A model generated the notes under the pieces. That model was given only the letters and a program-made list of their open reading frames with translations, was not told where the DNA came from and did not search any database. From a virus: a stretch of DNA of 64,000 nucleotides. A program made the position numbers and the translations under genes. The stretch spans positions 38,228-102,227 of the IMG/VR virus record IMGVR_UViG_3300045988_012220. The stretch is one strand, 5' to 3'. Below are positions 7,333-60,282 of the stretch, in pieces; positions within the stretch are counted from its first letter, which is position 1, and each line of letters starts with the position of its first letter.

Positions 7333-7338
7333 ACATTA

Positions 7339-7357
7339 CACGGGTTCGACTCCCGTG
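7339..7357 (+). other. tRNA T-arm-like hairpin (cacggg ttcgact cccgtg), not a complete tRNA
   Basis: A 6-bp stem with a 7-nt TTCGACT loop lies 7 nt after the stop of the 5440-7332 gene. Its 17-nt core (7340-7356) matches the T arm of tRNA-like element 1 (58959-58975, - strand) at 16/17 positions. No partner for a 5' acceptor strand was found within 200 nt upstream. Confidence 0.5.
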
Positions 7358-7402
7358 TAGCGTACAACAATTAAAAATATTAACTTAGTTATAATTTAAA
7401 TT

Positions 7403-8617: not shown

Positions 8618-9637
8618 ATGAATAATTCAAGTTCTTTATTAAATAATCTTCAGCTCTACCGTGGTAAGCGTTTTGCTGACTTGGTAGACGAAAACATGAT
8701 TGCTAATGCAATGCTTACAAAGCCTCATGAAGTAGCAGGCTTGTTGTCATTGGTTTTTGGTACAAAGGATGATGGTATTTCAACTACCATCGACTTGTTA
8801 ACTGGTGGTCTTGGTTCAACCATGACTATCGAAAACAGAGAGTATGAGTGGTCTGTAATGATTGATGCTGACCACGCTGTTAATATCCGCTACGCTAAGT
8901 GGAATGGTAAGGAGATTACTCCTAAGTCAATTACAGATGGTTTGACTCCAGGTATTAACAATACTCCTATTTATCTTGGTCTTGAGGAGAAGTTCTTCGG
9001 ACCTGGAGCAATCCTTGCATTTGATAACATCAACTTCCAGGTACGTGTAAACGGTACTCCATACCAGGATGGTAGCACATGGGTATATGAGACATATGTA
9101 GCAGAAGGCTTCCAGGGTTCTTATATCCCTTGTGAGTATTTGCTTCCAGGTCGTCAGGTAGACCGTATCGGTTCTGCATACGAGGAGTACAGTGATGAGG
9201 CAGATATCATCAACTATCAGACTCCATTTAAGATGCGTAATAGCTTGATGACTATGCGTCTTACTTACGATATCACAGGTGATGCTTACTCTACAGTATT
9301 GGCTATCGCTTTGACTGATCCTGAGACAGGTAAGAAGTCTTATTTGTGGTCTGACTATCAGTATTGGAAGGCTCTTCGTGAGTGGAAGAAGAGAGAGGAG
9401 AAGCAGTTGCTGTTCGCTCACTCTAACCGTAATGCAGATGGTACTTACAATTTGAAGGGTACTAATGGTCGGTTCGTTCCAATCTCTGCAGGTTTGTTCG
9501 AGCAGATTGCTCCAGCTAATGTACGTTACTACACCAAGCTGACTACAGAGTTGTTCGAGGATTACTTGTTCGACCTCTGCTATAACATTATCGGTACTAA
9601 CGAGCGTAAGTTCGTTGCTTTGACTGGTGAGATGGGT
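8618..9637 (+). CDS. major capsid protein, exon 1 (340 codons)
   Basis: This is an uninterrupted ORF with no TAG. It sits after the scaffold-like gene in the head module. The reading frame hits TAA at 9638-9640, exactly where a group I intron-like sequence begins (gggt|taa). Confidence 0.75.
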
Positions 9638-9908
9638 TAACTTTATAGCTCCCTGTAGCAGTAATGTTACTTGAAAATCTATTTAATTTCTGGGAAGCCC
9701 AAACGTTTAAGTCGTGGGTAATCAGAAGCGAAGTCTCGAAAGAGAAACGTTCAACGACTATCCGAAAGGAGTAGGGTTCAAGCGAACCCGAAATGATAGA
9801 CATCCTAATTGGGATGAAGATATAGTCTGATCTCATATGAAAGTATGAGGGCTTTTAATGATCGCAATAAAGCCAATCTGTAGTAGCGATACAGGTTAAA
9901 CATAAATG
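9638..9908 (+). ncRNA. group I self-splicing intron (271 nt, no ORF) in the capsid gene
   Basis: It contains gttcaacgactatc and gaagatatagtctgatctcat followed by a ctcat...atgag hairpin, and ends in aacataaatg. As I remember it, agatatagtctg plus a terminal acataatg matches the 3' core of the phage T4 td group I intron. The 5' junction gggt|taa also resembles td. The flanking ORFs join in frame (…TGEMG|IREFDRILKE…). Confidence 0.7.
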
Positions 9909-32056: not shown

Positions 32057-35000
32057 ATGGCAAATTACAATTTACTTAAGTCCCCAGCAGAGGACTATTT
32101 TAGAGGGTAGGCTAAAAAATTTGGTACAACATTACCAAATCAACGCAAATCCGTTCCTAATAAAAGGACTTAGGCTAATGTACCAAGTTATATATCAAGA
32201 CAATCTGGTTCAAGATTAGAATCTGATATAATGCCGCATGGAGATTGGTATAAGCCTAGTCAAAAATCTATTCAGAGATAGAAAAACGCTATAGCTGAAT
32301 ATGACTGGAATAAACATATTGACAGCTTATACAAGCAGCAAGAAAGATCAAATAGGCAAAAGATCGATGCTCAAGACGACTCGGAAGGCTTACTTTCTGA
32401 CACAGAGAAAGAGAAGCAATCTAAACTCGAAGAAGATGCCCTTCATCAGGAATATTTAAAGAGTCCGCTGCATGCAATATTCGGTTCTATGGGTTCTCCT
32501 TTGACCGGATCTTATGATGGTCTTGGAGAAACATTATTTAATATTGGATAGAGAGCTGGTCTGTTCTCTGCTTAGTCTAGCGATCTTGGAATAGAAAGCA
32601 CAAAGGGTAAGATTGCTCTCGCGCAAACAGACCAAGCTAAAGCAGATGCGTGGGCTAAACGAGAGCGATTAAAAAGAGATTTAAAATCAAAAGAAGATCA
32701 GTGGAACTATCTTAAAGCTAATCCTAAAGCTTAGGTTAAAGGTGATGCGTGGAAGGATACATATCTTCTCGGATAGGATCTTCTTAAGACTTACGATTAG
32801 TTATAGGATAAAGACCTTAATGAATTAGCAGACGCGTACAAAGCTACATGGATGAAAGATCACACATCTATGTGGGAAGGGTTCTAGGCTGCTGTAACAA
32901 AGATGTTCGCTTCTACAAATGATACATTTGATGGTACTGGTAGATCCAAAGAACAAATGGCTAAAGATTGGCTTGATAATTATAATAAATAGTTGTCTGA
33001 TAGATTCGAGAAAGCTCATCAAGGAATGAGTTTGGATCAAAAAGAGATTGAAGCTAATCAATTTAAAGCTAAACGCGAACAGGATCTCAAGGATTATAAA
33101 GAAACTCTTGATGACCAAATGCGTAGAGCTTCTAAATGGAAGAAGTTCTGGAACGTCAGCAAACATGCTGAGAATCTTGCAAACATACATGCTAATGATG
33201 ACCTTTTAACACCAGATTATTGGTTATGGAATTTACCGCAGCAAATGGGTTCTTCTTGGTCTTCAGACACAGGTAATATTGGTAATCTTATCACAACGGC
33301 TGGTACTATTGGTTCTTTTGCTTTAGGCGCAGCTGGACATCCAGAAGCTGGTTTTGCTTTGTACAACGCCGCTAATGCAGCAGCACTCCCATTTAACTTA
33401 CAAGGTGCATAGGATGAGAACTACGCTGAAATTGCTCAGCGTTGGACATAGAACTACCAATAGAATCTCAACAAATACGAAGTATAGGAAGCGTTCGGTA
33501 AAGCTTAGGGTATTTCTGCATCATATAAAGACTTGCAGAAGCAATCTGTAAAGTTCGCGATATAGAATGGTATGTCTAAAGATGATGCTGAAAAGAGGTA
33601 TGATTTAAAAACGCAGCAAGGTAAAGAAAAAGTTCTCGGAGACTATTTGATGGGCATTACTAAGAGTAACGACCAACGTTTGTCTAAAGCTAAGCTTGGC
33701 ACCACAAAGGGTCTTGAGCAGTAGTTTATGATAGATAATGCTAGAACCATGGGTACTGAAGTTGTGCAAAATGTTATATCATACGTACAGCCTGGTAATA
33801 GTCTTTCTAATCTATATCGACAAGCTGTATATAAACTTCCAACAACCAAACTTGGTGCCAAACTTGCTACAAGTAAAGCTGGTAGACTTGTAATAGGAAC
33901 AGACTACGCTCTTGCTGGTCTTAACGGAGCTGTTGAAAGTAAATTTGCACAGGCTGGGCAGTATATTAATTCTCTTACAAGTACAGCTGGCAAAACTGGA
34001 GCGAAGATTGGTTCTACAACAATGGATATTCTTGGTGGTGGTGTTCTTGGACACTATGTTGGTGCTGGAGTTGGTGCTGCCGCAGGAGAAGTTGCTAGAG
34101 GAGTAAAGGGGCTTGCAAAAGAAATTATGCCTCAGGCTCTTAAAGATGCTGGCGTAATGGCTGGAGAGGCTATATCCAAGAAAGCTGAAGCCTTAGCAAC
34201 AATGGTTGGCGCTAAAACATTAAAAAGGAAATTGTTAAAGGCGGCAGTTAAAAACCCTAACACAATGACTGTTTTAAAGATGCTCAAAAAATACGGAATT
34301 AATACTGTTAGAAGCGGATTGATAGACAGAGCATCTGAGGGTAATGAAGAAATTGTACAGCAGTTGAATGCTAATGCTGCTGAAGAATTTGCTAAGACAT
34401 ATGGATACGGATCAGCCGATTTGCTTAGTCTTGCGTTCCAGGATATGGCTTATAGTAAAGAGGTGTCAGACTTCTATAAAGGTATGTTCGGCCTTGGTGA
34501 GTCTGAGCTTTACAACGATATGGAGATGTTGTCGAACTGGCGAGGCGGTTTTGCTATGGGTGGTATGCACCCTATGGTAGCCATGAACATTTATCACGCT
34601 GTTAACGACATTAAGAATACTGTACAAGTAAAAGACGCCATAATGCATAGTGCACTTCTTGATAGAGAACAAGGAAAGATGAATAGAGCTAGTAATGCTG
34701 TCATCTCAGACCAGATCTCTAAGGGAAGATATAATTAGTTAACTACAGAAATACAGTAGCTCAGAGAAGCTGATTTGAAGCGAGAGAGACCGCGTTTCGG
34801 TGAACAATATTGGAATGACTTACAGTCTAATGTGGAACGTATTTCTGCTCTCGTAAACAATAAATAGATTGAGCAACAATATCGCCTTAAAGGTATCAAC
34901 AAAGGCACAGAGCAATACAATGTAGCTATAGCTGATAGAGCTAATATCGAGCAATAGTTAGCTGCCAATAGAAAAGCTCAGTAGGAAGCTGAAGTTAGGC

Positions 35001-44000: not shown

Positions 44001-44500
44001 TAGACGCTCTTACGTATAATCCATAGACATGCTCAATGAATGCGCCTATTGCGTCTACTGCTGATGCAAGTTGGATGGAGTCTATGCTTATATCTGCAGC
44101 TAATAAAGATATTATTGACATCATGACTCCTGGTAGCTCATTTATTCAGAGATCAGTCTTTGCTATAGAAGGTAAAAATGGCGAAGGTAATATATAGGGA
44201 CAGGAGATCTATAATGGTAAGAGATTATAGATGATAAATAAAGAGGGCTCTATGGATGCAGTAATATCTATAGATTACTTCCAGGATATTCTTCCGAAAA
44301 ACTTGTCTTACAACGAGGCTAGACAATGGCTCTTGGATCATAATATAATTGGAGAAAGTGCTACATCTAATACGATCGGTTATCGTATTCCTACACAGGC
44401 TCAGTCATCTATACATGCTTTACGTTTTGTAGATGTTGTACCTGCTGTCAAATCCACGGTAATACTTCCAACTGAGTTTACCAAGATCACTGGTTCGGAT
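32057..44500 (+). CDS. giant virion-RNA-polymerase-type protein, exon 1 (4,148 codons)
   Basis: ATG 32057. All track ORFs from 32993 to 44231 (16 of them) share frame 2. A line-by-line scan found no in-frame TAA/TGA, only TAG. It contains HEGFH (39902-39916). The exon ends …EFTKITGSD at 44500, where the intron-like sequence begins. Confidence 0.75.
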
Positions 44501-44761
44501 AAACTATATCAATGTTCAAACCAGTATAATATAAAAAACTCCTTTAATTGCTGGGAACTCCATATCAAGTGGACAATCAGCAGCCAAGCCCATTATGGGA
44601 AGGTTCAACGACTATCGAAATCATAGTATAAGAGAAACACTTATACGAAGAAGAGAGTAGAGTACACGAAAGTGGAAATGGGGAGCTTTTAGTATATGGT
44701 AATAGTATACTAATTGAAGATATAGTCTGATCTCATTGGTAACAATGAGTTAACAAAAATG
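44501..44761 (+). ncRNA. group I self-splicing intron (261 nt, no ORF) in the giant RNAP-type gene
   Basis: It shares gttcaacgactatc and gaagatatagtctgatctcat plus a ctcat...atgag hairpin with the capsid-gene intron, and ends in aaaaatg. In-frame TAA 44711-44713 blocks read-through. The exons join in frame as …ITGSD|FDIDHLY…. Confidence 0.7.
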
Positions 44762-47812: not shown

Positions 47813-50800
47813 TGAAAGAAATATGTCCTAATTTACATAATAAACAAGTAGCCAAAGAGTTTGGTGAATTAAAAGATTTGTTCGGTGAGGATACTGCGTA
47901 TTTACTCTGGAGCAAAAATAATGGATATAGTATAGATAAGGCACCAAATGGCGCCGACTCTATATTATTTGGAGAGTTGCTGAACGTTACCAATGGAGAT
48001 AGAATATAGGCTCTTATATTAAAAGCCAAAGTTTATTCAAACGAATTCCTTAACTGGTTTGGTGACTGGACATCTGAAGATAAAGAAAACGTATCTAAAG
48101 TTGTAGATAAGAATGGAGAGCCGTAGGTTACATATCACACAGTAAGCCCCGACCACTATTCTAATTTTAAGAAGTTTGACACAAATATCGAGGGGTTTAA
48201 AACAGCTATATATCATACAGATAGTATAGAGATGTCTATATCATATAATAAATATAAAGCAGAGAATTACGAAGAAATCAAAGACTATGATATAAGTACA
48301 TATAATACATATGTAGAAACAGCCAACAAGGAAATATTTGAAGCATTAAACGATATTAATAAAGATGATTTTTTAGACGAACGTAATTATGATTGGTTTC
48401 TAAAAAAGAAAGAAGAATTTTTATACTATATCAAAAACAAAGAACTAGGTAAAGCTGACGATATTCTTAAATCTTTTCGTGGTTTGCTAAAACAAAATAA
48501 AGAAACATTTGTTCTTATTGGCGACCCATTTAGTGACAAAGAACCTGATTTTGATACTTTTTATCAAACGAAGCTAGATGAATTAGAGCGGAGTTTTTAT
48601 ACTTTATATGATGCTGAGAAGAATTATAATCCTTATTATATAGAAAGAAAACTACAAACCCAAACATTCGATTATACTAAAATTGATTTTCTTAATATAA
48701 AGAATCCAAAAATAATTGATGCTAAAGGAAATAATTGGAACCACATTCCTGTTGGAAATAACAAGATTTTATCAACTAGAGATTTAGAGAAGTCGTATAT
48801 TACAACAAATTATTCTGATGCAGAAATAGCCGATTCTAGAGCAGAACTTTATATTAGATACAAAAATAAAGATTTCTCTAAATTCAATCTATATGGTATT
48901 ACTATTAGTATAAATAAAAACGGAGATGCTAATTTTTACACAAGAGACAATGTTATTACTATAAAAGGGTATTTGGACTTAGATACAAATCAGATAAAGT
49001 AGGAATATTAGAAAAACAACATATATTTTTATAATCAGGATTTTCATCGCGATGGCGTTATTATTAATAATGTTACTGATTACGGATCTCCAGTTGGGGA
49101 GTTATTACCACATACGGTATACGAATGCATTGATAATTCTCAAGTGAAATCCGCATTTAACAATGGACAGTTTGCTAATCCAGATGACATGTATGCATCT
49201 TCTCAAGGAGAATCCAATATGGGCGCATCCTCTAGATTATCTAATATTCCTAGTAAAGGGGATATATCTATATTGTAGCAGTATTTAAAGTCTCATAAAA
49301 GCGGTGTATCTAGTACAGCTTTAAAGCTTGTAATGACTGCTGTAAATAGATACTTTAATGATAAATAGACTGGAGTTACATACGAAATAGTAGATAACCT
49401 TCCTGGCGGAGAAGCAGCACATTATGATAGAGTTAACAAGGTTATTCGTATAAATAAGAATGCAAACTTTAGAAATGAAAGCAAATCTACTGCACCTGAA
49501 GTATAGACTATTGTTCACGAAATGCTTCATGCTGTTACAGAGTATGCGATTAGTAACGATTCTAGGATAAGGAAATCATTTACAGACCTCTACTAGAAAA
49601 CAAAGAAAGTTCTTGGGAAAGATGCGTAGGACTACGGTTTGAATGATGTATATGAATTTGTAGCAGAACTTAGCAATGCGCAATTTGTAGAAAAACTAAA
49701 GTCTATACAATATAATCGTAAACAAACGCTGTTTGAAAAGATTAAACAGACTATAAAGAAAATATATTCTTAGATATTTACAAGCTATAAAGACTTTATT
49801 GGTTCAGATAATGTGTACGAAGCTGCTGTTAACGATTTGTTTACAGTTATGTCTCACAACGAATAGAAGGAAGACAATATAACTGATAAAGAAGCTAAAG
49901 ACAGATTAGCTTCAATACAAGCTTCTGAAGACAAGGTTAATCAGATACATCATAGAATAACTGAGCTTTTCCAAGGGTTGTATAAGGACTATAAAAAATA
50001 GCTTAATAAGGGTGCCAATAGACAGCGTAGAGAAGACTAGGTGTGGTCTACAATATAGGAACTTAAGTCACAGGAAAAGAAAGAGTCTTCAAGAATAGCT
50101 ATACAATCTGCTTTAAAAACTATTGGTGTGTTCGCAAGAGATCCAATTAATAATACTATTTTGCAGGCTCGTAGAGATACTATTTTAGGCTTCTTGTAGG
50201 AATGCTAGAAGAATAATTTCGATAGCCTCACAGCTGAATAGATACACGATATGAAGTCTAATATTATAGACTTCTACAACGATCTTGTCAAAACATTGTC
50301 TGATAACTAGATGGATCTGGATGCTAGAGATCAAGCTGACGTCGATACGCTTAATGCCACTGTAAGACAGATTAATCAATTATGGAAAGATGCTGCACAA
50401 ATTGTAGCAGACAAAATAGTCGATGAAAATGTAGATAAATACATCAATGAATCTGAAGAAGAGAAGAATAAGATAAAGACTGTAGCTAAAGACTGGCTTC
50501 ATAAGAATGATATGTATGGAGACGAATCTAAACTTACATTATTCTTTAATTACTCTAGATAGAACAGTCCTATTATTCGCCAAGCGTTCTAGATGATATA
50601 GGATGCTGATCAGTAGACTAGAAAAGAGTCTCTACCGGTTATGTAGTAGATAGCAAAAGCTTTTGATAAAGCTAATTCCATCATAGATGATCTTACTCCA
50701 GGAAACTGGTAGACGATGTTGATGGAAAGGTATACAGACGGTCCTAAGAAAGGAGAGTTTACAGGCTTGTTTAGATCAGCTGTTAATAGAGGTTAGTTTA

Positions 50801-57384: not shown

Positions 57385-57679
57385 AATAAAAATTCTTTCC
57401 CCTTATCTTGGATACAGAAGTTTTATTAAAATAGACAATTTCGCCGTCAGTTACTTTTTGTTCACCTTCATGATGGACACATGCACATATACATCCATCA
57501 TCACTATAACTATCCCAGATAGTCATTTGCAATTTATTTGGAAGACAAATGCGCATAAATCCACCTTTGCTAAGGTGAATTTTCTTAGTCAGCTTCTTTG
57601 TAAGCCATTTATGCAATAGAGGAGACATTACTGCACCTCCCAGCACACCAAGCAGGCATCCTATTACTACATCAATCAT
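57365..57679 (-). CDS. small membrane protein (104 aa)
   Basis: An intact ORF with an N-terminal hydrophobic segment VVIGCLLGVLGGAVMSPL. It overlaps both neighbours. Confidence 0.55.
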   Translation of the reverse strand: MIDVVIGCLLGVLGGAVMSPLLHKWLTKKLTKKIHLSKGGFMRICLPNKLQMTIWDSYSDDGCICACVHHEGEQKVTDGEIVYFNKTSVSKIRGKNFYYDRQEI

Positions 57680-58643
57680 ATTTCTGTAACGTTTTTGTTA
57701 ACCAGTCTTTCATGGTGCTAAATCCGTTGTCACGAACAGCATCTGATAGATCTTTGGCTTTAAATTTCTTATTAATGAAAAAAGCATCTATATTATATTG
57801 TTTGCTGTATTGTCTAGCCTTAAGCATACCAGTTTTATCTCTATCATACAGTATAACTATATGTTTCCATTTGGAACGTAGAGATCTAAGTATATCTTCA
57901 GGTATAAACACAGTTTCACTAGCAGCAGCTATTGCATTAAAACCCATCTCGTAGCAACACATGACATCTTTCAATGATTTTGTTATTATGAGTAGGTCGC
58001 CTCCTTCCTTAGGCAATTCGGATAATCCCTGTACGTGCCGATTCGTCAAATTGGTACGCCATTTAGTAAACTTGGAAGCAAGTGGACGATAAATCTTAAA
58101 CTTGTCATACACTTTATATGCATACATAGGACTATTTTCTTTGTAGATACTTCGTACGATACTATTACAAAGAAAGTATTTAATGCTGAATACATTGAAC
58201 TTTTTTAGAGTATCAATATGTATTCCAAACTGTTTCCAGTATTGTTTGTCTACATTAGTAAACGACTGTCGAACTATTCCGATATCGGTATCTCCTTTCG
58301 GTGTATCGTACGTATTTGTCCTTACGATTGTATTAGGATTTATTCTGCGTACGATTCTCAATAATTCTCGTTCAAGTTCTTCTCTAGTCGTTATACCTTT
58401 GTATTCTTTTAGGAACTTCAGAGCATTTCCACACTCCCCAGTTCCAAGGTCTTTCCATAGCAGTCCTCCGGTTTTAGAATGAAATATTCCAAATGACGGG
58501 TTTTTATCTCCAGACCTTAAAGGGCTATTCATAAGCTTTCCAACTTTGAATTGTCCTAAACAATACGTATAGATGTCTAAATCATTTACTTTGTCCAAGA
58601 TGTCTCTCAAGGACATAGTAATTGCTGTTCTAGTACTATACAT
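57672..58643 (-). CDS. DNA primase, Toprim domain (323 aa)
   Basis: The Toprim-like pattern is LLIITKSLKDVMCC…AAASETVFIP…IVILYDRDKTG (conserved E and DxD). It sits within the replication gene cluster. Confidence 0.7.
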   Translation of the reverse strand: MYSTRTAITMSLRDILDKVNDLDIYTYCLGQFKVGKLMNSPLRSGDKNPSFGIFHSKTGGLLWKDLGTGECGNALKFLKEYKGITTREELERELLRIVRRINPNTIVRTNTYDTPKGDTDIGIVRQSFTNVDKQYWKQFGIHIDTLKKFNVFSIKYFLCNSIVRSIYKENSPMYAYKVYDKFKIYRPLASKFTKWRTNLTNRHVQGLSELPKEGGDLLIITKSLKDVMCCYEMGFNAIAAASETVFIPEDILRSLRSKWKHIVILYDRDKTGMLKARQYSKQYNIDAFFINKKFKAKDLSDAVRDNGFSTMKDWLTKTLQKYD

Positions 58644-58950
58644 AACTTATAAGTTAGGTACCTATATAGATTGCAAATCTATTAATATAAGAGATTCTAT
58701 ATATTAGTATGCATACATAAGTACTTTCCATTGGGTTCCGTCGAGTTTTTTATTGTTTTGTTCTAAGCTGTTCAAAAAATCTCGTTTACATGTAGTTTAG
58801 CATGTATTTTACGTACATAATCAATACTCAGCTTTAGCCTCTACACTTTATTAAGTTATATTCGGAGCTATTTAGAAGTACTTTCTTCAAATAGACGAAT
58901 AGCCGTTCTGCCTAGGCTGTTAGCCCCTATACCTAGCTCTTTTTGCATAG

Positions 58951-59030
58951 TGGAGTATACGGGAATCGAACCCGTATTGCCTTCTTTTCCGTAAGAAGGT
59001 CACCATTCTCAGTGCGCACATACATACCCC
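58951..59030 (-). tRNA. tRNA-like element 1 (80 nt, non-canonical; possibly degenerate Arg-ACG-like)
   Basis: On the - strand it has a canonical T arm ACGGG-TTCGATT-CCCGT. The acceptor helix GGGGTAT/ATACTCC has 7 bp including 1 G-U, with discriminator A and no encoded CCA. The anticodon-arm region is 20 nt instead of 17 (CCTTC-TTACGGAAAA-GAAGG). Six extra nt (gtatgtatgtg repeat) separate the acceptor and D stems. Confidence 0.4.
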
Positions 59031-59041
59031 TTATAAATTAG

Positions 59042-59162
59042 TGCTTGCAAAAGGAATCGAACCTTTAAACCGAAGCTTTCGTTAAAACTCATTAGTCGAC
59101 TTCATGAGTTAATGCATATGCACCTACTAACAACCCAGCTTACCAATACTGTGTATACAAGC
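59042..59162 (-). tRNA. tRNA-like element 2 (121 nt, non-canonical, extra arms)
   Basis: T arm is AAAGG-TTCGATT-CCTTT. Acceptor GCTTGTA/TGCAAGC has 7 bp including 1 G-U. Positions 8-9 are TA, and a D-arm-like CACAG-TATTGGTAAG-CTGGG follows. Between the D and T arms are three hairpins: GTTAGT…ATTAAC, AACTCAT-11 nt-ATGAGTT and CGAA-AGC-TTCG. The 11-nt loop contains CTA but not after a U33. Confidence 0.4.
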
Positions 59163-59384
59163 AAATTGAGCAGTTTAATGACATGCTCAGGTCTACGTTG
59201 ACGGACGTAGAATAGTTTACGGACATATTCAGGTCGGGGACTTCATTAGTACATCCCAGATCCAACTTAAGTATGGTTCACTCATGAGATCTGGCACCCC
59301 AGGAGAACCAGGGTGCAATAAAAAGAGTGTGCACCTATTCTCACGGACCGGAGTTTTCTGCATACATTTGTACCAATGAAATTG

Positions 59385-59572
59385 TGGCTATGCTAGGAAT
59401 CGAACCTAGCAGAATGGATAAAAGAAAATACGCCAAAAATAAACCATTCTTGTCATGTGTCTCACGACACCCTGACTAGCCTTATTGGAGGCATTTCACC
59501 TCCAAAGGGTAACTGAATTACCTAGCTCCACCAATACCCTTTCATGGCAGTATTACCTCCCTGGGTATAACC
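59385..59572 (-). tRNA. tRNA-like element 3 (97 or 188 nt depending on 5' partner, non-canonical)
   Basis: T arm is CTAGG-TTCGATT-CCTAG with 3' acceptor strand CATAGCC. Two 5' partners are possible: GGTTATA at 59566-59572 (6/7 pairs, followed by CC and a D-like CAG-GGAGGTAATA-CTG) or GGCTAGT at 59475-59481 (5/7 pairs). The interior has a 7-bp stem AGAATGG/CCATTCT enclosing 26 nt. Confidence 0.3.
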
Positions 59573-59676: not shown

Positions 59677-60282
59677 TTAAAAGGGAAGGTCAGATGCGCC
59701 TGCTGCATCCGCAGTTTCCGGAGTAACGGTTGGTGGTACGTTAAGCGGATCGTTGTTCTCCTTATCGGCAACAACTGGACGCTCCATAAGATCGTTCTTA
59801 AAGAGCTTAATCTGCGAATTTGTATTAGACATGTCTTCAACGAAGATTCCAAGCTTACTTACTTGAGTATAGCCCTTCTTGTCGTAAATAACCTTCAAAC
59901 GGAGTTTCTTCTTGGTAGCGATCATAGGATCAAGCATTTGCTTTGTCCAGTCGATCATCTCCTTAAATGTAGAAAGCTCTGCATCTGGTCTCTGCGGATA
60001 AAAACAATCGAGAATCTGACAAACTCGTCCAAACTGAGCGTTGTCACGCTTCTGCAGATCTTCGTCTGTCTTAATATACATTCCCTTTGTATTCTTCCAC
60101 TCTGTCATAGTAGCTGTTTGACCATTTTCATTCTCAAATACAATCTCAAGAAAATCGAGACCCTGAGGAGACTTGTTACAGTTTACCTCTTTAAGAGTGA
60201 TATTCTGGTTAATGCCTACTGGCATATAACTACTATTACTAAATTCTTCGTTGTTAATTGCGGCTGTCTTTGTACTAAACAT
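59677..60282 (-). CDS. ssb: single-stranded DNA-binding protein (201 aa)
   Basis: An intact ORF whose acidic C-terminus ends …AAGASDLPF, like the conserved D-(I/L)-P-F tip of bacterial and phage SSBs. It lies in the replication cluster. Confidence 0.65.
   Translation of the reverse strand: MFSTKTAAINNEEFSNSSYMPVGINQNITLKEVNCNKSPQGLDFLEIVFENENGQTATMTEWKNTKGMYIKTDEDLQKRDNAQFGRVCQILDCFYPQRPDAELSTFKEMIDWTKQMLDPMIATKKKLRLKVIYDKKGYTQVSKLGIFVEDMSNTNSQIKLFKNDLMERPVVADKENNDPLNVPPTVTPETADAAGASDLPF

What the first reader, a model, noticed from the sequence alone, without database searches (positions are those of the whole stretch)
58951..59572. Three tandem tRNA-like modules that do not fold as canonical tRNAs
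Three perfect T arms (GGTTCGATTCC-type) occur on the - strand within 450 nt. Each is followed by a 7-nt strand that finds a complementary 5' partner. That closes molecules of 80 nt, 121 nt and 97 or 188 nt. Elements 1 and 2 are only 11 nt apart, like a tRNA array, and elements 2 and 3 have plausible D arms. The interiors are aberrant. Each has a 7-bp stem where the 5-bp anticodon stem should be, with loops of 6, 11 and 26 nt, plus extra hairpins. Element 1 has a gtatgtatgtg insertion after the acceptor. No loop presents U-CUA-R. Possible readings are intron- or insertion-bearing tRNAs, decayed tRNAs, or tRNA-like RNAs with another role such as RNase P/Z processing punctuation, decoys for tRNA-targeting host defences, or part of the recoding machinery. 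The last group is speculation. In a TAG-recoded phage any tRNA-like gene deserves scrutiny.
Basis: partly seen in the sequence, partly recalled or inferred. Interest (0 to 1): 0.65.

Follow-up and report, generated by a model that had tools for sequence, protein, structure and literature searches.

The report
Anticodon-less tRNA-like RNA gene array
Three tRNA-shaped RNA genes that keep the acceptor and T arms but have no anticodon loop lie in a fast-changing cassette site upstream of the primase gene of a crAss-like gut phage; the structures are real and conserved, they are neither ordinary tRNAs nor the phage's stop-codon suppressor, and their function is still unknown.

Summary
Three canonical T arms, against 0.03 expected by chance, lie in a noncoding gap of about 900-1030 nt between a hypothetical gene and the DNA primase of a TAG-recoded Burzaovirus-like crAss phage. 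ARAGORN (default, intron and relaxed modes) and Rfam/Infernal do not call them tRNAs. All three fold into four-way junctions with a 7-bp central stem and loops of 6, 11 and 26 nt.

Comparison with about 90 related loci shows that this gap is a hot spot. It holds 180 T-arm elements. Only 11 of 48 sequence clusters are canonical tRNAs. One relative carries a true tmRNA in the array.

Elements 1 and 2 are mobile cassettes, at least 96-97% conserved in different neighbourhoods. Distant family members have fully compensated acceptor, T and central stems. Element 1 carries the alanine/tmRNA identity set (G3:U70, A73).

Element 3 is different. It is the tRNA-like 3' domain, with a 5-bp acceptor, of a clade-wide conserved RNA, and its covariation is strong. 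It is preceded by a conserved leader (UUGGUGGAG plus hairpins).

The sister genome cr124_1 has a normal tRNA(CUA) suppressor and a permuted tmRNA elsewhere, so the array is not the recoding machinery.

Best reading: tRNA-derived "top-half" RNAs matured by the tRNA-processing enzymes and acting as tRNA mimics. The function is inferred, not shown.

The parts
58951..59030 (-). Element 1: an 80-nt tRNA-like cassette. Acceptor GGGGUAU/AUACUCC with G3:U70 and discriminator A73. A 4-bp D-like stem. A 7-bp stem CCUUCUU/AAGAAGG with the 6-nt loop ACGGAA. T arm ACGGG-UUCGAUU-CCCGU. Trailer CUA.
   Evidence: Sequence. MFE fold z = -2.5. tmRNA model matches the two ends at 19.6 bits, below threshold. 96% identical copies in L025 and L030 in other neighbourhoods. 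Distant relatives L040 and L045 have a different but paired 7-bp stem.
59042..59162 (-). Element 2: a 121-nt tRNA-like cassette. Acceptor GCUUGUA/UGCAAGC with A73. Canonical D arm CAGU-AUUGGUAA-GCUG. An extra hairpin UGCAUAUGCA. A 7-bp stem AACUCAU/AUGAGUU with an 11-nt loop. A variable-arm-like hairpin CGAA-AGC-UUCG. T arm AAAGG-UUCGAUU-CCUUU. Trailer CUAA.
   Evidence: At least 97% identical copies in 5 gut metagenome contigs in 3 different contexts; the substitutions keep the pairs. Family members L016 and L007 share the D region but have wholly different, fully paired acceptor and T stems.
59385..59481 (-). Element 3, tRNA-like 3' domain (97 nt). A 5-bp acceptor GGCUA/UAGCC with A73. A D-like interrupted hairpin (GUCA..GUGUC-GUGA-GACAC..UGAC). 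A 7-bp stem AGAAUGG/CCAUUCU closing a variable AU-rich 26-nt loop. A 6-bp T arm GCUAGG-UUCGAUU-CCUAGC.
   Evidence: RNAalifold and pair counts on 18 sequences: 99.8% of cells paired, and 14 of 29 pairs with changes on both sides against 5.5 in shuffles. MFE z = -4.8. Homologues in L056 and L065, with acceptor GCGGU/ACCGC in L065. L107 has a minimal version that lacks the D-like and central arms.
59482..59534 (-). Leader domain of element 3. Invariant single-stranded UUGGUGGAG (59534-59526). Hairpin 1 GGUAA-UUCAG-UUACC (59522-59508). Hairpin 2 UUGGAGG-UGAAAUG-CCUCCAA (59505-59485) with an invariant loop.
   Evidence: Invariant columns and compensatory changes in both hairpins. The UGGUGGAG-plus-hairpin motif recurs ahead of tRNAs and tRNA-like genes in distant relatives: 53 occurrences on the sense strand and 0 on the antisense strand. 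No Rfam family matches it.
59163..59237 (-). Conserved 75-nt block between element 3 and the cassettes. It has two hairpins (CUACGU-CCGUCA-ACGUAG and UGAGCA-UGUCAUUAAAC-UGCUCA) followed by a U-rich run. It marks the upstream edge of the variable cassette slot.
   Evidence: 84-89% identical in all Burzaovirus-like loci, whereas the sequence on either side is replaced. Sequence read.
59238..59384 (-). Variable noncoding spacer after element 3. It exists in two unrelated versions across the clade. The 44-codon ORF in it is not conserved as coding.
   Evidence: window-type sequence only in L015, L018, L019, L021, L026, L028 and L029. (stop codons, indels and no third-position bias).
58644..58950 (-). 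AT-rich module of about 300 nt between element 1 and the primase start codon. It is shared only with L004 and L059. It contains a window-specific acceptor-like closure GGGGCUA/UAGCUCC (58927-58863) that relatives do not keep.
   Evidence: Alignment A2, 87% mean identity; the closure is broken in L004 and L059.

Best explanation
The three elements belong to an accessory array of tRNA-derived "top-half" RNAs. The array occupies a fixed, hypervariable slot upstream of the primase gene in Burzaovirus-like and related crAss-like phages.

Shown:
- Each element keeps a paired acceptor stem, a canonical T arm and T loop, a discriminator, and a trailer that starts with C.
- In place of the 5-bp/7-nt anticodon arm there is a 6-7-bp stem capped by an arbitrary loop or insert. 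They therefore cannot decode codons.
- Elements 1 and 2 are self-contained cassettes that move between genomes as units.
- Element 3 is the tRNA-like 3' domain of a conserved RNA that opens the array.

Inferred:
- The array is transcribed with the early/replication operon.
- RNase P cuts at the 5' end of each acceptor stem. RNase Z or exonucleases cut after the discriminator. The CCA-adding enzyme completes the end.
- Element 1, with G1-G2-G3:U70-A73, is then a substrate for alanyl-tRNA synthetase, like tRNA-Ala and the tRNA-like domain of tmRNA.
- The mature RNAs act as tRNA/tmRNA mimics. They engage host factors that read the acceptor/T-arm minihelix or the CCA end. The most likely role is as decoys against tRNA-end-directed defence or toxin activities.
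- Their excision also cuts the transcript just ahead of the primase gene.

They are not the amber suppressor.
For: - T arms far above chance, and cloverleaf-like MFE folds.
- Not tRNAs by ARAGORN or Rfam.
- The same slot in 83 sources holds 180 T-arm elements. They fall into 48 clusters, and ARAGORN calls only 11 of these as tRNAs.
- In relatives, Infernal aligns some as tRNAs with 22-86-nt inserts replacing the anticodon loop. It also finds a 91-bit tmRNA inside the array in L066.
- Minihelix-only versions of 46-68 nt exist. Selection therefore acts on the top half.
- Element 3 covaries strongly.
- In the families of elements 1 and 2, the acceptor, T and central stems are fully compensated.
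- Element 2 is at least 97% conserved in three different neighbourhoods, and element 1 in three.
- Cassette content differs between genomes whose primase is 98% identical.
- 8 of the 37 non-canonical clusters carry G1G2G3:U70 plus A73. None of the 11 canonical clusters does.
- Canonical phage tRNAs and the tRNA-like elements share the trailer N73-C-[A/U]-A.
- The suppressor tRNA(CUA) and a permuted tmRNA are encoded elsewhere in cr124_1.
Against: - There are no expression, end-mapping, CCA or aminoacylation data. Every processing and function step is inferred.
- The fold of element 2 is not more stable than shuffles (z = -0.9).
- Elements 2 and 3 lack G3:U70, so a single identity-based mechanism does not cover all three.
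- Anticodon-less RNAs would be poor decoys for anticodon nucleases, the best-known tRNA-directed defences.
- No phage protein partner was found; the upstream gene has no Pfam match.
- Hypervariability also fits neutral cassette turnover at a recombination hot spot.
- Covariation for elements 1 and 2 rests on few, distant family members aligned by eye.
Confidence: 0.5

Rival explanations
1. Processing punctuation only. The tRNA-like folds exist only to recruit RNase P/Z, so that the long early transcript is cut and the primase mRNA gets a defined, short 5' leader. The excised RNAs have no role of their own.
For: - In most relatives, the last element ends about 15 nt before the primase ATG, with ...N73-CUAACUUAUAAGUUAUG.
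- Minihelices of 46 nt are enough there.
- Only the top half, which is the RNase P/Z substrate, is conserved.
Against: - One cleavage site would do, yet arrays hold up to 4-6 elements.
- It does not explain why cassettes are exchanged between near-identical genomes.
- It does not explain the conserved D regions and central stems.
- It does not explain the excess of G3:U70 plus A73.
- In the window, about 300 nt separate the last element from the primase gene.
Confidence: 0.2
2. Decaying tRNA and tmRNA genes. These are neutral remnants of horizontally acquired tRNAs whose anticodon arms have been destroyed by insertions and deletions.
For: - Canonical tRNAs and a tmRNA occupy the same slot in relatives.
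- Internal deletion variants exist (L107).
- Inserts are variable and AU-rich.
Against: - Acceptor and T stems stay perfectly paired, and T loops stay canonical, in nearly all 180 elements.
- Element 3 shows 99.8% paired cells with 14 doubly changed pairs.
- Family members have completely different yet fully paired stems.
- Cassettes are at least 96-97% conserved across different contexts.
Confidence: 0.15
3. Cryptic decoders. These are intron- or insertion-bearing tRNAs, possibly non-canonical amber suppressors, that become functional after splicing or decode with expanded loops.
For: - The phage is TAG-recoded.
- Published work notes recoded crAss-like phages without a detectable suppressor (PMC7886860, read).
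- Infernal accepts some family-mates as tRNAs with inserts.
Against: - No U-CUA-R or other plausible 7-nt anticodon loop can be made in any of the three elements.
- The inserts are 6-45 nt, too short for self-splicing, and no group I hit lies here.
- ARAGORN in intron mode finds nothing.
- cr124_1 and other contigs of the clade have a normal tRNA(CUA) elsewhere.
Confidence: 0.04
4. Mini-tmRNA-like rescue or interference. The G3:U70 elements, element 1 here, are tmRNA tRNA-like domains without a tag reading frame. They bind SmpB and modulate trans-translation, which read-through of TAG stops would load heavily after the code switch.
For: - G1G2G3:U70 plus A73, and a tmRNA-like T arm and 3' end, in element 1.
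- A true tmRNA in the array of L066, and a permuted tmRNA in cr124_1.
- None of the G3:U70 clusters is a canonical tRNA-Ala.
Against: - Element 1 scores 19.6 bits against a gathering score of 47, and the match covers only its two ends.
- It has a D-like stem, which tmRNA lacks.
- It has no resume codon, tag frame or pseudoknots.
- Elements 2 and 3 lack G3:U70.
Confidence: 0.1
5. attP-type fragments of host tRNA genes used for integration.
For: Phage attachment sites often carry the T arm and the 3' acceptor strand of a tRNA gene (established knowledge).
Against: - Each element has both acceptor strands and its own interior.
- The neighbouring genes are replication genes, and no integrase lies next to the array.
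- Several elements sit in tandem.
- There is covariation at the RNA level.
Confidence: 0.01

Closest known systems
Phage T4 stable RNAs C and D (species 1 and 2 RNAs) in the T4 tRNA gene cluster
   Same: They are small phage RNAs encoded among tRNA genes, with tRNA-like ends that the tRNA-processing enzymes mature (own knowledge). They are not decoders, and their function is still unknown (PMC9697503, read).
   Different: There is no sequence relationship. T4 has two fixed genes, not a hypervariable cassette array. No G3:U70 theme or conserved leader motif is known for them.
tmRNA tRNA-like domain, including one-piece (RF00023) and permuted (RF04321) tmRNAs and the reduced mitochondrial tmRNAs of jakobids
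   Same: Element 1 shares G1-G2-G3:U70-A73, the T arm, and a long helix where the anticodon stem would be. Real tmRNAs occur in the same array (L066) and elsewhere in the sister genome.
   Different: There is no tag reading frame, resume codon or pseudoknots. A D-like stem is present. The Rfam score is far below threshold. Elements 2 and 3 lack the alanine identity pair.
Viral and cellular tRNA-like processing modules: murid herpesvirus 68 vtRNAs, and MALAT1 mascRNA
   Same: They are cloverleaf-like RNAs with intact acceptor and T arms and defective anticodon arms. They are made to be cut by RNase P/Z and receive CCA, but they are not used in decoding (own knowledge).
   Different: Those are eukaryotic systems tied to pol III promoters or lncRNA 3'-end formation. 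Here the setting is a bacteriophage operon with many exchangeable cassettes.
Accessory tRNA arrays of lytic phages (such as T5 and T4) that replace or shield host tRNAs attacked by defence nucleases
   Same: They are clustered and strain-variable, and they are expressed early. Relatives carry canonical tRNAs (Leu-UAA, Gln-UUG, Trp, Thr, Val, Asn, Lys) in the same slot.
   Different: The window's three elements have no anticodon loop. They cannot replace a tRNA in translation and could act only as mimics or decoys.
Bacterial Y-RNA-like YrlA RNAs
   Same: They are non-coding RNAs with a tRNA-like module that includes a canonical T arm, and some are phage-encoded (own knowledge).
   Different: The topology is the opposite. 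In YrlA the RNA ends form the Ro-binding stem and the acceptor-like stem is capped. No Rfam hit was found here.

Membership tests
tRNA (Rfam RF00005 / ARAGORN cloverleaf) | 7-bp acceptor stem with a discriminator base | tested here: met
   Elements 1 and 2 have 7/7 pairs and A73. Element 3 has only 5 bp.
tRNA (Rfam RF00005 / ARAGORN cloverleaf) | 5-bp T stem with a UUCRANU T loop | tested here: met
   All three have GGUUCGAUUCC. The T stem of element 3 is 6 bp.
tRNA (Rfam RF00005 / ARAGORN cloverleaf) | 5-bp anticodon stem with a 7-nt loop carrying U33 and a purine at 37 | tested here: not met
   The central stems are 7 bp, with loops of 6, 11 and 26 nt. No loop has U33 in the right register.
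tRNA (Rfam RF00005 / ARAGORN cloverleaf) | Detected by a standard tRNA finder at its normal threshold | tested here: not met
   ARAGORN default finds 0 and intron mode finds 0. At an 80% threshold it gives only mispaired calls. No RF00005 hit at E<=10. tRNAscan-SE was not available.
Amber suppressor tRNA (recoding machinery) | CUA anticodon in a 7-nt anticodon loop | tested here: not met
   None of the three elements has one. The genus's suppressor, with loop CUCUAAA, lies elsewhere in cr124_1 and in other contigs of the clade.
tmRNA (RF00023 / RF04321) | G3:U70 in a GGG-start acceptor stem, A73, and a tRNA-like T arm | tested here: met
   Met for element 1 only: GGGGUAU/AUACUCC-A. Elements 2 and 3 have U3-A70 and C3-G70.
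tmRNA (RF00023 / RF04321) | mRNA-like domain with a resume codon, a tag reading frame and a stop, plus pseudoknots | tested here: not met
   Element 1 is 80 nt, and its central helix is capped by a hexaloop. The tmRNA model aligns only the two ends, at 19.6 bits against a gathering score of 47. ARAGORN finds no tmRNA.
tmRNA (RF00023 / RF04321) | Alanylation and SmpB binding | not testable with these tools
   This needs charging and binding assays.
Group I intron-containing tRNA | Group I catalytic core inserted in the anticodon loop | tested here: not met
   The window's two group I introns are at 9628-9849 and 44464-44749, not here. The inserts here are no longer than about 45 nt.

The most novel reading that the evidence does not exclude
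crAss-like phages of the Suoliviridae lineage may carry a large, undescribed class of anticodon-less tRNA mimics. They would be exchangeable cassettes that keep only the acceptor/T-arm half, often with alanine/tmRNA identity. A conserved leader RNA (GGUCAGUGGUGGAG plus a hairpin) launches them, and its invariant core is complementary to the CUCCACCA 3' end of G3:U70 RNAs. They would act as decoys or regulators for host factors that read tRNA 3' ends: CCA-end-modifying defence toxins, AlaRS, or SmpB/trans-translation. That would link them to the phage's take-over of host translation.
Probability: 0.2. Interest if true: 0.8.

Novelty: new variant of a known kind. Interest (0 to 1): 0.6.

Why it matters
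crAss-like phages are the most abundant viruses of the human gut, and their non-coding RNAs are almost unexplored.

This locus shows that standard annotation, which found 0 tRNAs in the window, misses a family-rich set of structured, conserved, tRNA-derived RNAs at a defined hot spot. A conserved leader motif and phage-encoded tmRNAs go with them.

If these RNAs are processed and charged as predicted, they would be a natural example of tRNA "top-half" mimicry in bacteriophages. They would also give a new handle on phage-host conflicts over the translation apparatus.

The negative result matters too. These elements are not the "missing" suppressor of TAG-recoded crAss-like phages.

Tried and rejected
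1. Canonical tRNA, intron-bearing tRNA or tmRNA. ARAGORN in default, intron, relaxed, tmRNA and mitochondrial modes gave nothing credible. Rfam at the gathering and E-value thresholds also gave nothing credible.

2. Permuted tmRNA made of element 1 plus downstream sequence. The RF04321 match is 17.6 bits (E = 0.46). The downstream GGGGCUA pairs with only 4 nt of element 1's 3' strand, and it is not conserved.

3. The 188-nt closure of element 3. It is 6/7 in the window and worse in relatives. Part of that stretch (59678-59553) is probably coding.

4. A fourth element (58927-58863). Its closure is broken in L004 and L059.

5. A small protein gene in the spacer (59363-59229). It shows no coding-type conservation.

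6. A short ORF starting at the AUG in the loop of hairpin 2. A 1-nt indel in cr124_1 shifts the frame, and the changes are compensatory in the stems.

7. Pattern scans for homologues of elements 1 and 2 in IMG/VR gave almost nothing. One hit, L204, was a chance match. The viral scan also missed a known copy (L025), so those counts are lower bounds.

8. The GGTGGAGC...GTGAAATGC scan returned mostly chance hits.

10. The literature search found no description of this array or of the leader motif.

11. The gene upstream of the array has no Pfam domain.

12. The sigma-70 promoter and terminator scan was uninformative.
Full report
Context. The window is a crAss-like phage. Its closest GenBank records are Burzaovirus (Suoliviridae, Oafivirinae) cr124_1 and cr7_1. 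The + strand late genes are TAG-recoded: ORFs of at least 150 aa total 4,320 aa under the standard code and 18,630 aa if TAG is read as sense. The finding lies on the - strand, in the standard-code replication block. It sits in a gap between a 201-aa hypothetical gene (59677-60282) and the DNA primase (57672-58643). Rfam at gathering thresholds finds only two group I introns elsewhere in the window, and ARAGORN finds no tRNA or tmRNA anywhere in it.

Checking the observation. GGTTCRANTCC occurs four times in the window, against 0.03 expected. Three of the four are the reported T arms.
- Element 1 (58951-59030) closes with seven pairs, and so does element 2 (59042-59162). They are 11 nt apart.
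- A 7/7 partner turns up by chance in 6-11% of shuffles. The closures therefore need outside support, which the comparative data give.
- Unconstrained folding returns a four-way junction for each element, with a 7-bp central stem and loops of 6, 11 and 26 nt. The z-scores are -2.5, -0.9 and -4.8.
- ARAGORN finds nothing in intron mode, and at an 80% threshold it gives only mispaired cloverleaves.
- Infernal gives no tRNA hit at E<=10. It gives a 19.6-bit match of the tmRNA model to the two ends of element 1, against a gathering score of 47.
The description is therefore accurate, with one correction. Element 3 is closed by five pairs (the 97-nt form), not by the 188-nt pairing.

The locus in relatives. 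Eighty primase-anchored loci from IMG/VR plus the two GenBank genomes show that this gap is a hot spot.
- Across 83 sources it holds 180 T-arm elements.
- The closures of 135 nt or less fall into 48 sequence clusters, and ARAGORN calls only 11 of them as tRNAs (Leu-UAA, Gln-UUG, Trp, Thr, Val, Asn, Lys).
- Infernal adds members that align as tRNAs whose anticodon loop is replaced by inserts of 22, 42 or 86 nt. It also finds a bona fide 282-nt tmRNA inside the array of L066, at 91 bits.
- Some members are bare minihelices of 46-68 nt.
- Nearly all elements, canonical or not, are followed by N73-C-[A/U]-A. So are the phage's tRNA(CUA) and tRNA-Met.
- Within Burzaovirus-like genomes, three stretches are conserved: the first 245 nt of the gap, a 75-nt block (59237-59163) and the primase start. 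The cassette slot between them is replaced from genome to genome, even where the primase is 98% identical.

Elements 1 and 2 are cassettes. Element 1 recurs at 96% identity in L025 and L030, next to different neighbours. Its few changes lie in loops or give a U.G pair. The distant relatives L040 and L045 keep the architecture with a different acceptor stem and a different 7-bp stem, UAAUGGU/ACUAUUA, again capped by a 6-nt loop.

Element 2 has no copy in IMG/VR. It does occur at 97% identity or more in five gut metagenome contigs, in three different contexts, and its substitutions keep the pairs (U.G to U-A, and A-U to G.U). L016 (128 nt) and L007 (83 nt) share its D region, UACACAGUAUUGGYAAGCUGGGU. 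Their acceptor and T stems are completely different but fully paired, and their central stems are 6-7 bp with loops of 21 and 6 nt. This pattern argues against neutral decay. It shows that the acceptor/T-arm half and a long central helix are what selection keeps.

Element 3 is a different object. An alignment of 18 distinct sequences gives five helices: two leader hairpins, a 5-bp acceptor GGCUN/NAGCC, a D-like hairpin and a 6-bp T arm. In these, 99.8% of cells are paired. Fourteen of 29 pairs have changes on both sides, against 5.5 +/- 1.2 in shuffles (0 of 500 shuffles reach this), and controls with the partner slid by 1-3 columns give about 40% pairing.
- The acceptor's fifth pair is A-U, C-G or G-C in different phages.
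- L065 has GCGGU/ACCGC.
- L107 lacks the D-like and central arms altogether.
- The central 7-bp stem closes an AU-rich loop of 26 to about 80 nt that is not conserved.
Upstream lies an invariant single-stranded UUGGUGGAG, followed by the two hairpins. The loop of the second hairpin, UGAAAUG, is also invariant.

The same core, usually in the form AAAGGUCAGUGGUGGAG(G) followed by a hairpin and CCCC, precedes tRNAs and tRNA-like genes in distant relatives. It occurs 53 times on the sense strand and never on the antisense strand in 553 kb. Rfam has no family for it. UGGUGGAG is the exact complement of CUCCACCA, the mature 3' end of RNAs with G1-G4 and G3:U70. I note this as a lead only.

Relation to recoding and tmRNA. 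In cr124_1, ARAGORN finds a canonical tRNA with anticodon CUA (loop CUCUAAA) at 47896-47967, at the head of the late genes. It also finds a tRNA-Met. Infernal confirms a permuted tmRNA at 34448-34683 (RF04321, 63.3 bits), whose acceptor GGGCGUG/CACGUCC carries G3:U70. These regions correspond to the part of the genome outside the window. The suppressor's anticodon arm recurs in at least five other contigs that also hold this clade's array or element-3 leader. The array is therefore not the suppressor.

The alanine/tmRNA identity set is over-represented among the non-canonical clusters: 8 of 37, including element 1. It is absent from the 11 canonical clusters. This ties part of the array to tmRNA-like or alanine-accepting chemistry.

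Mechanism. The structures, their conservation and their cassette behaviour are shown. Everything that follows is inferred from established knowledge. RNase P, RNase Z, the CCA-adding enzyme, EF-Tu and AlaRS all recognise the acceptor/T-arm minihelix, and G3:U70 is sufficient for alanine identity. From this I infer that the RNAs are excised from the early transcript, receive CCA and, for element 1, are alanylated. Because they cannot decode, I infer that they act as mimics.

I favour a decoy or titration role, for two reasons: the cassettes turn over like an arms-race locus, and only the top half is conserved. Pure punctuation, neutral decay, a mini-tmRNA role and cryptic decoding are the rivals. 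The last of these is the least likely.

Limits. There are no expression data, and tRNAscan-SE was not available. The family alignments for elements 1 and 2 are small and partly made by eye. The collection scans were capped and demonstrably incomplete. The suppressor was seen in sister genomes, not in the window's own genome.

Noticed in passing
window 59678-59553 (-), overlapping the end of the gene at 59677-60282: The upstream gene ends CCC UUU UAA G. The +1 frame then runs on for 41 codons (KEFTPEEIEILLDCMKSGRWFLYDLHSRSVKLYNKWLYPGR*). Between the window and cr124_1, 6 of 8 differences there are synonymous third-position changes. This suggests a programmed +1 frameshift of the RF2 type (UUU_U slip at a stop codon) or a separate small ORF. 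L056 lacks this segment.
   Followed up: partly
window 59534-59482 (-); also L031, L032, L036, L038, L040, L041, L044-L046, L051, L063, L065, L072, L078 and L082: A conserved leader motif, (A)AAGGUCAGUGGUGGAG(G) followed by a hairpin of variable sequence and CCCC(UAAC), lies 5-70 nt upstream of tRNAs and tRNA-like genes. It occurs 53 times on the sense strand and 0 times on the antisense strand. It has no Rfam family and was not found in the literature. Its core is complementary to CUCCACCA.
   Followed up: partly
window 59497-59488 (-), hairpin 2 of the leader: The invariant GGUGAAAUGC is identical to the 10-mer of the 16S rRNA helix 23 '690 loop' region (GCGGUGAAAUGCGUAG). I recall that sequence from memory and did not check it with a tool. 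The pairing register differs by one base, so this may be coincidence.
   Followed up: no
window 9628-9849 (+) and 44464-44749 (+): Two group I catalytic introns (Rfam RF00028, 93 and 87 bits) lie in the TAG-recoded late-gene block.
   Followed up: no
window 1-50000 (+): The late genes use TAG as a sense codon. Total ORF length rises more than four-fold when TAG is read through. The - strand replication block reads well in the standard code.
   Followed up: partly
window 7338-7358 (+): A fourth T-arm-like hairpin (ACACGGG-UUCGACU-CCCGUGU) lies just downstream of a TAA stop codon in the late region. It is followed by AGCGUACAAC. No acceptor partner was sought.
   Followed up: no
L202 (NC_055899 cr124_1) 34448-34683 (-); L066 2550-2831 (+): Phage-encoded tmRNAs. 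cr124_1 has a permuted two-piece type (RF04321, 63 bits; ARAGORN tag GNVNNIVDYTNVA*). L066 has a one-piece 282-nt tmRNA (RF00023, 91 bits) inside the primase-upstream array. This could be relevant to ribosome rescue after stop-codon read-through.
   Followed up: partly
window 59237-59163 (-): A 75-nt block is conserved in all Burzaovirus-like loci. It has two hairpins and a U-rich tail. It may be a weak terminator or a processing signal at the edge of the cassette slot.
   Followed up: no
window 58950-58644 (-): An AT-rich module of about 300 nt is shared only with L004 and L059. About 30 nt upstream of the primase ATG it contains TAGATTTG, which fits the Bacteroides -7 promoter consensus TAnnTTTG (consensus from my own knowledge). 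In most relatives a tRNA-like element abuts the primase start instead.
   Followed up: no
window 59013-59020 (-) in element 1; L040 and L045 equivalents: The 5' part of element 1 holds the perfect palindrome GUGCGCAC. The distant family members hold a different palindrome, GUGUGCACAC, at the same place. Palindromy is thus kept while the sequence changes. This could be an RNA dimerisation site or a DNA-level site.
   Followed up: no
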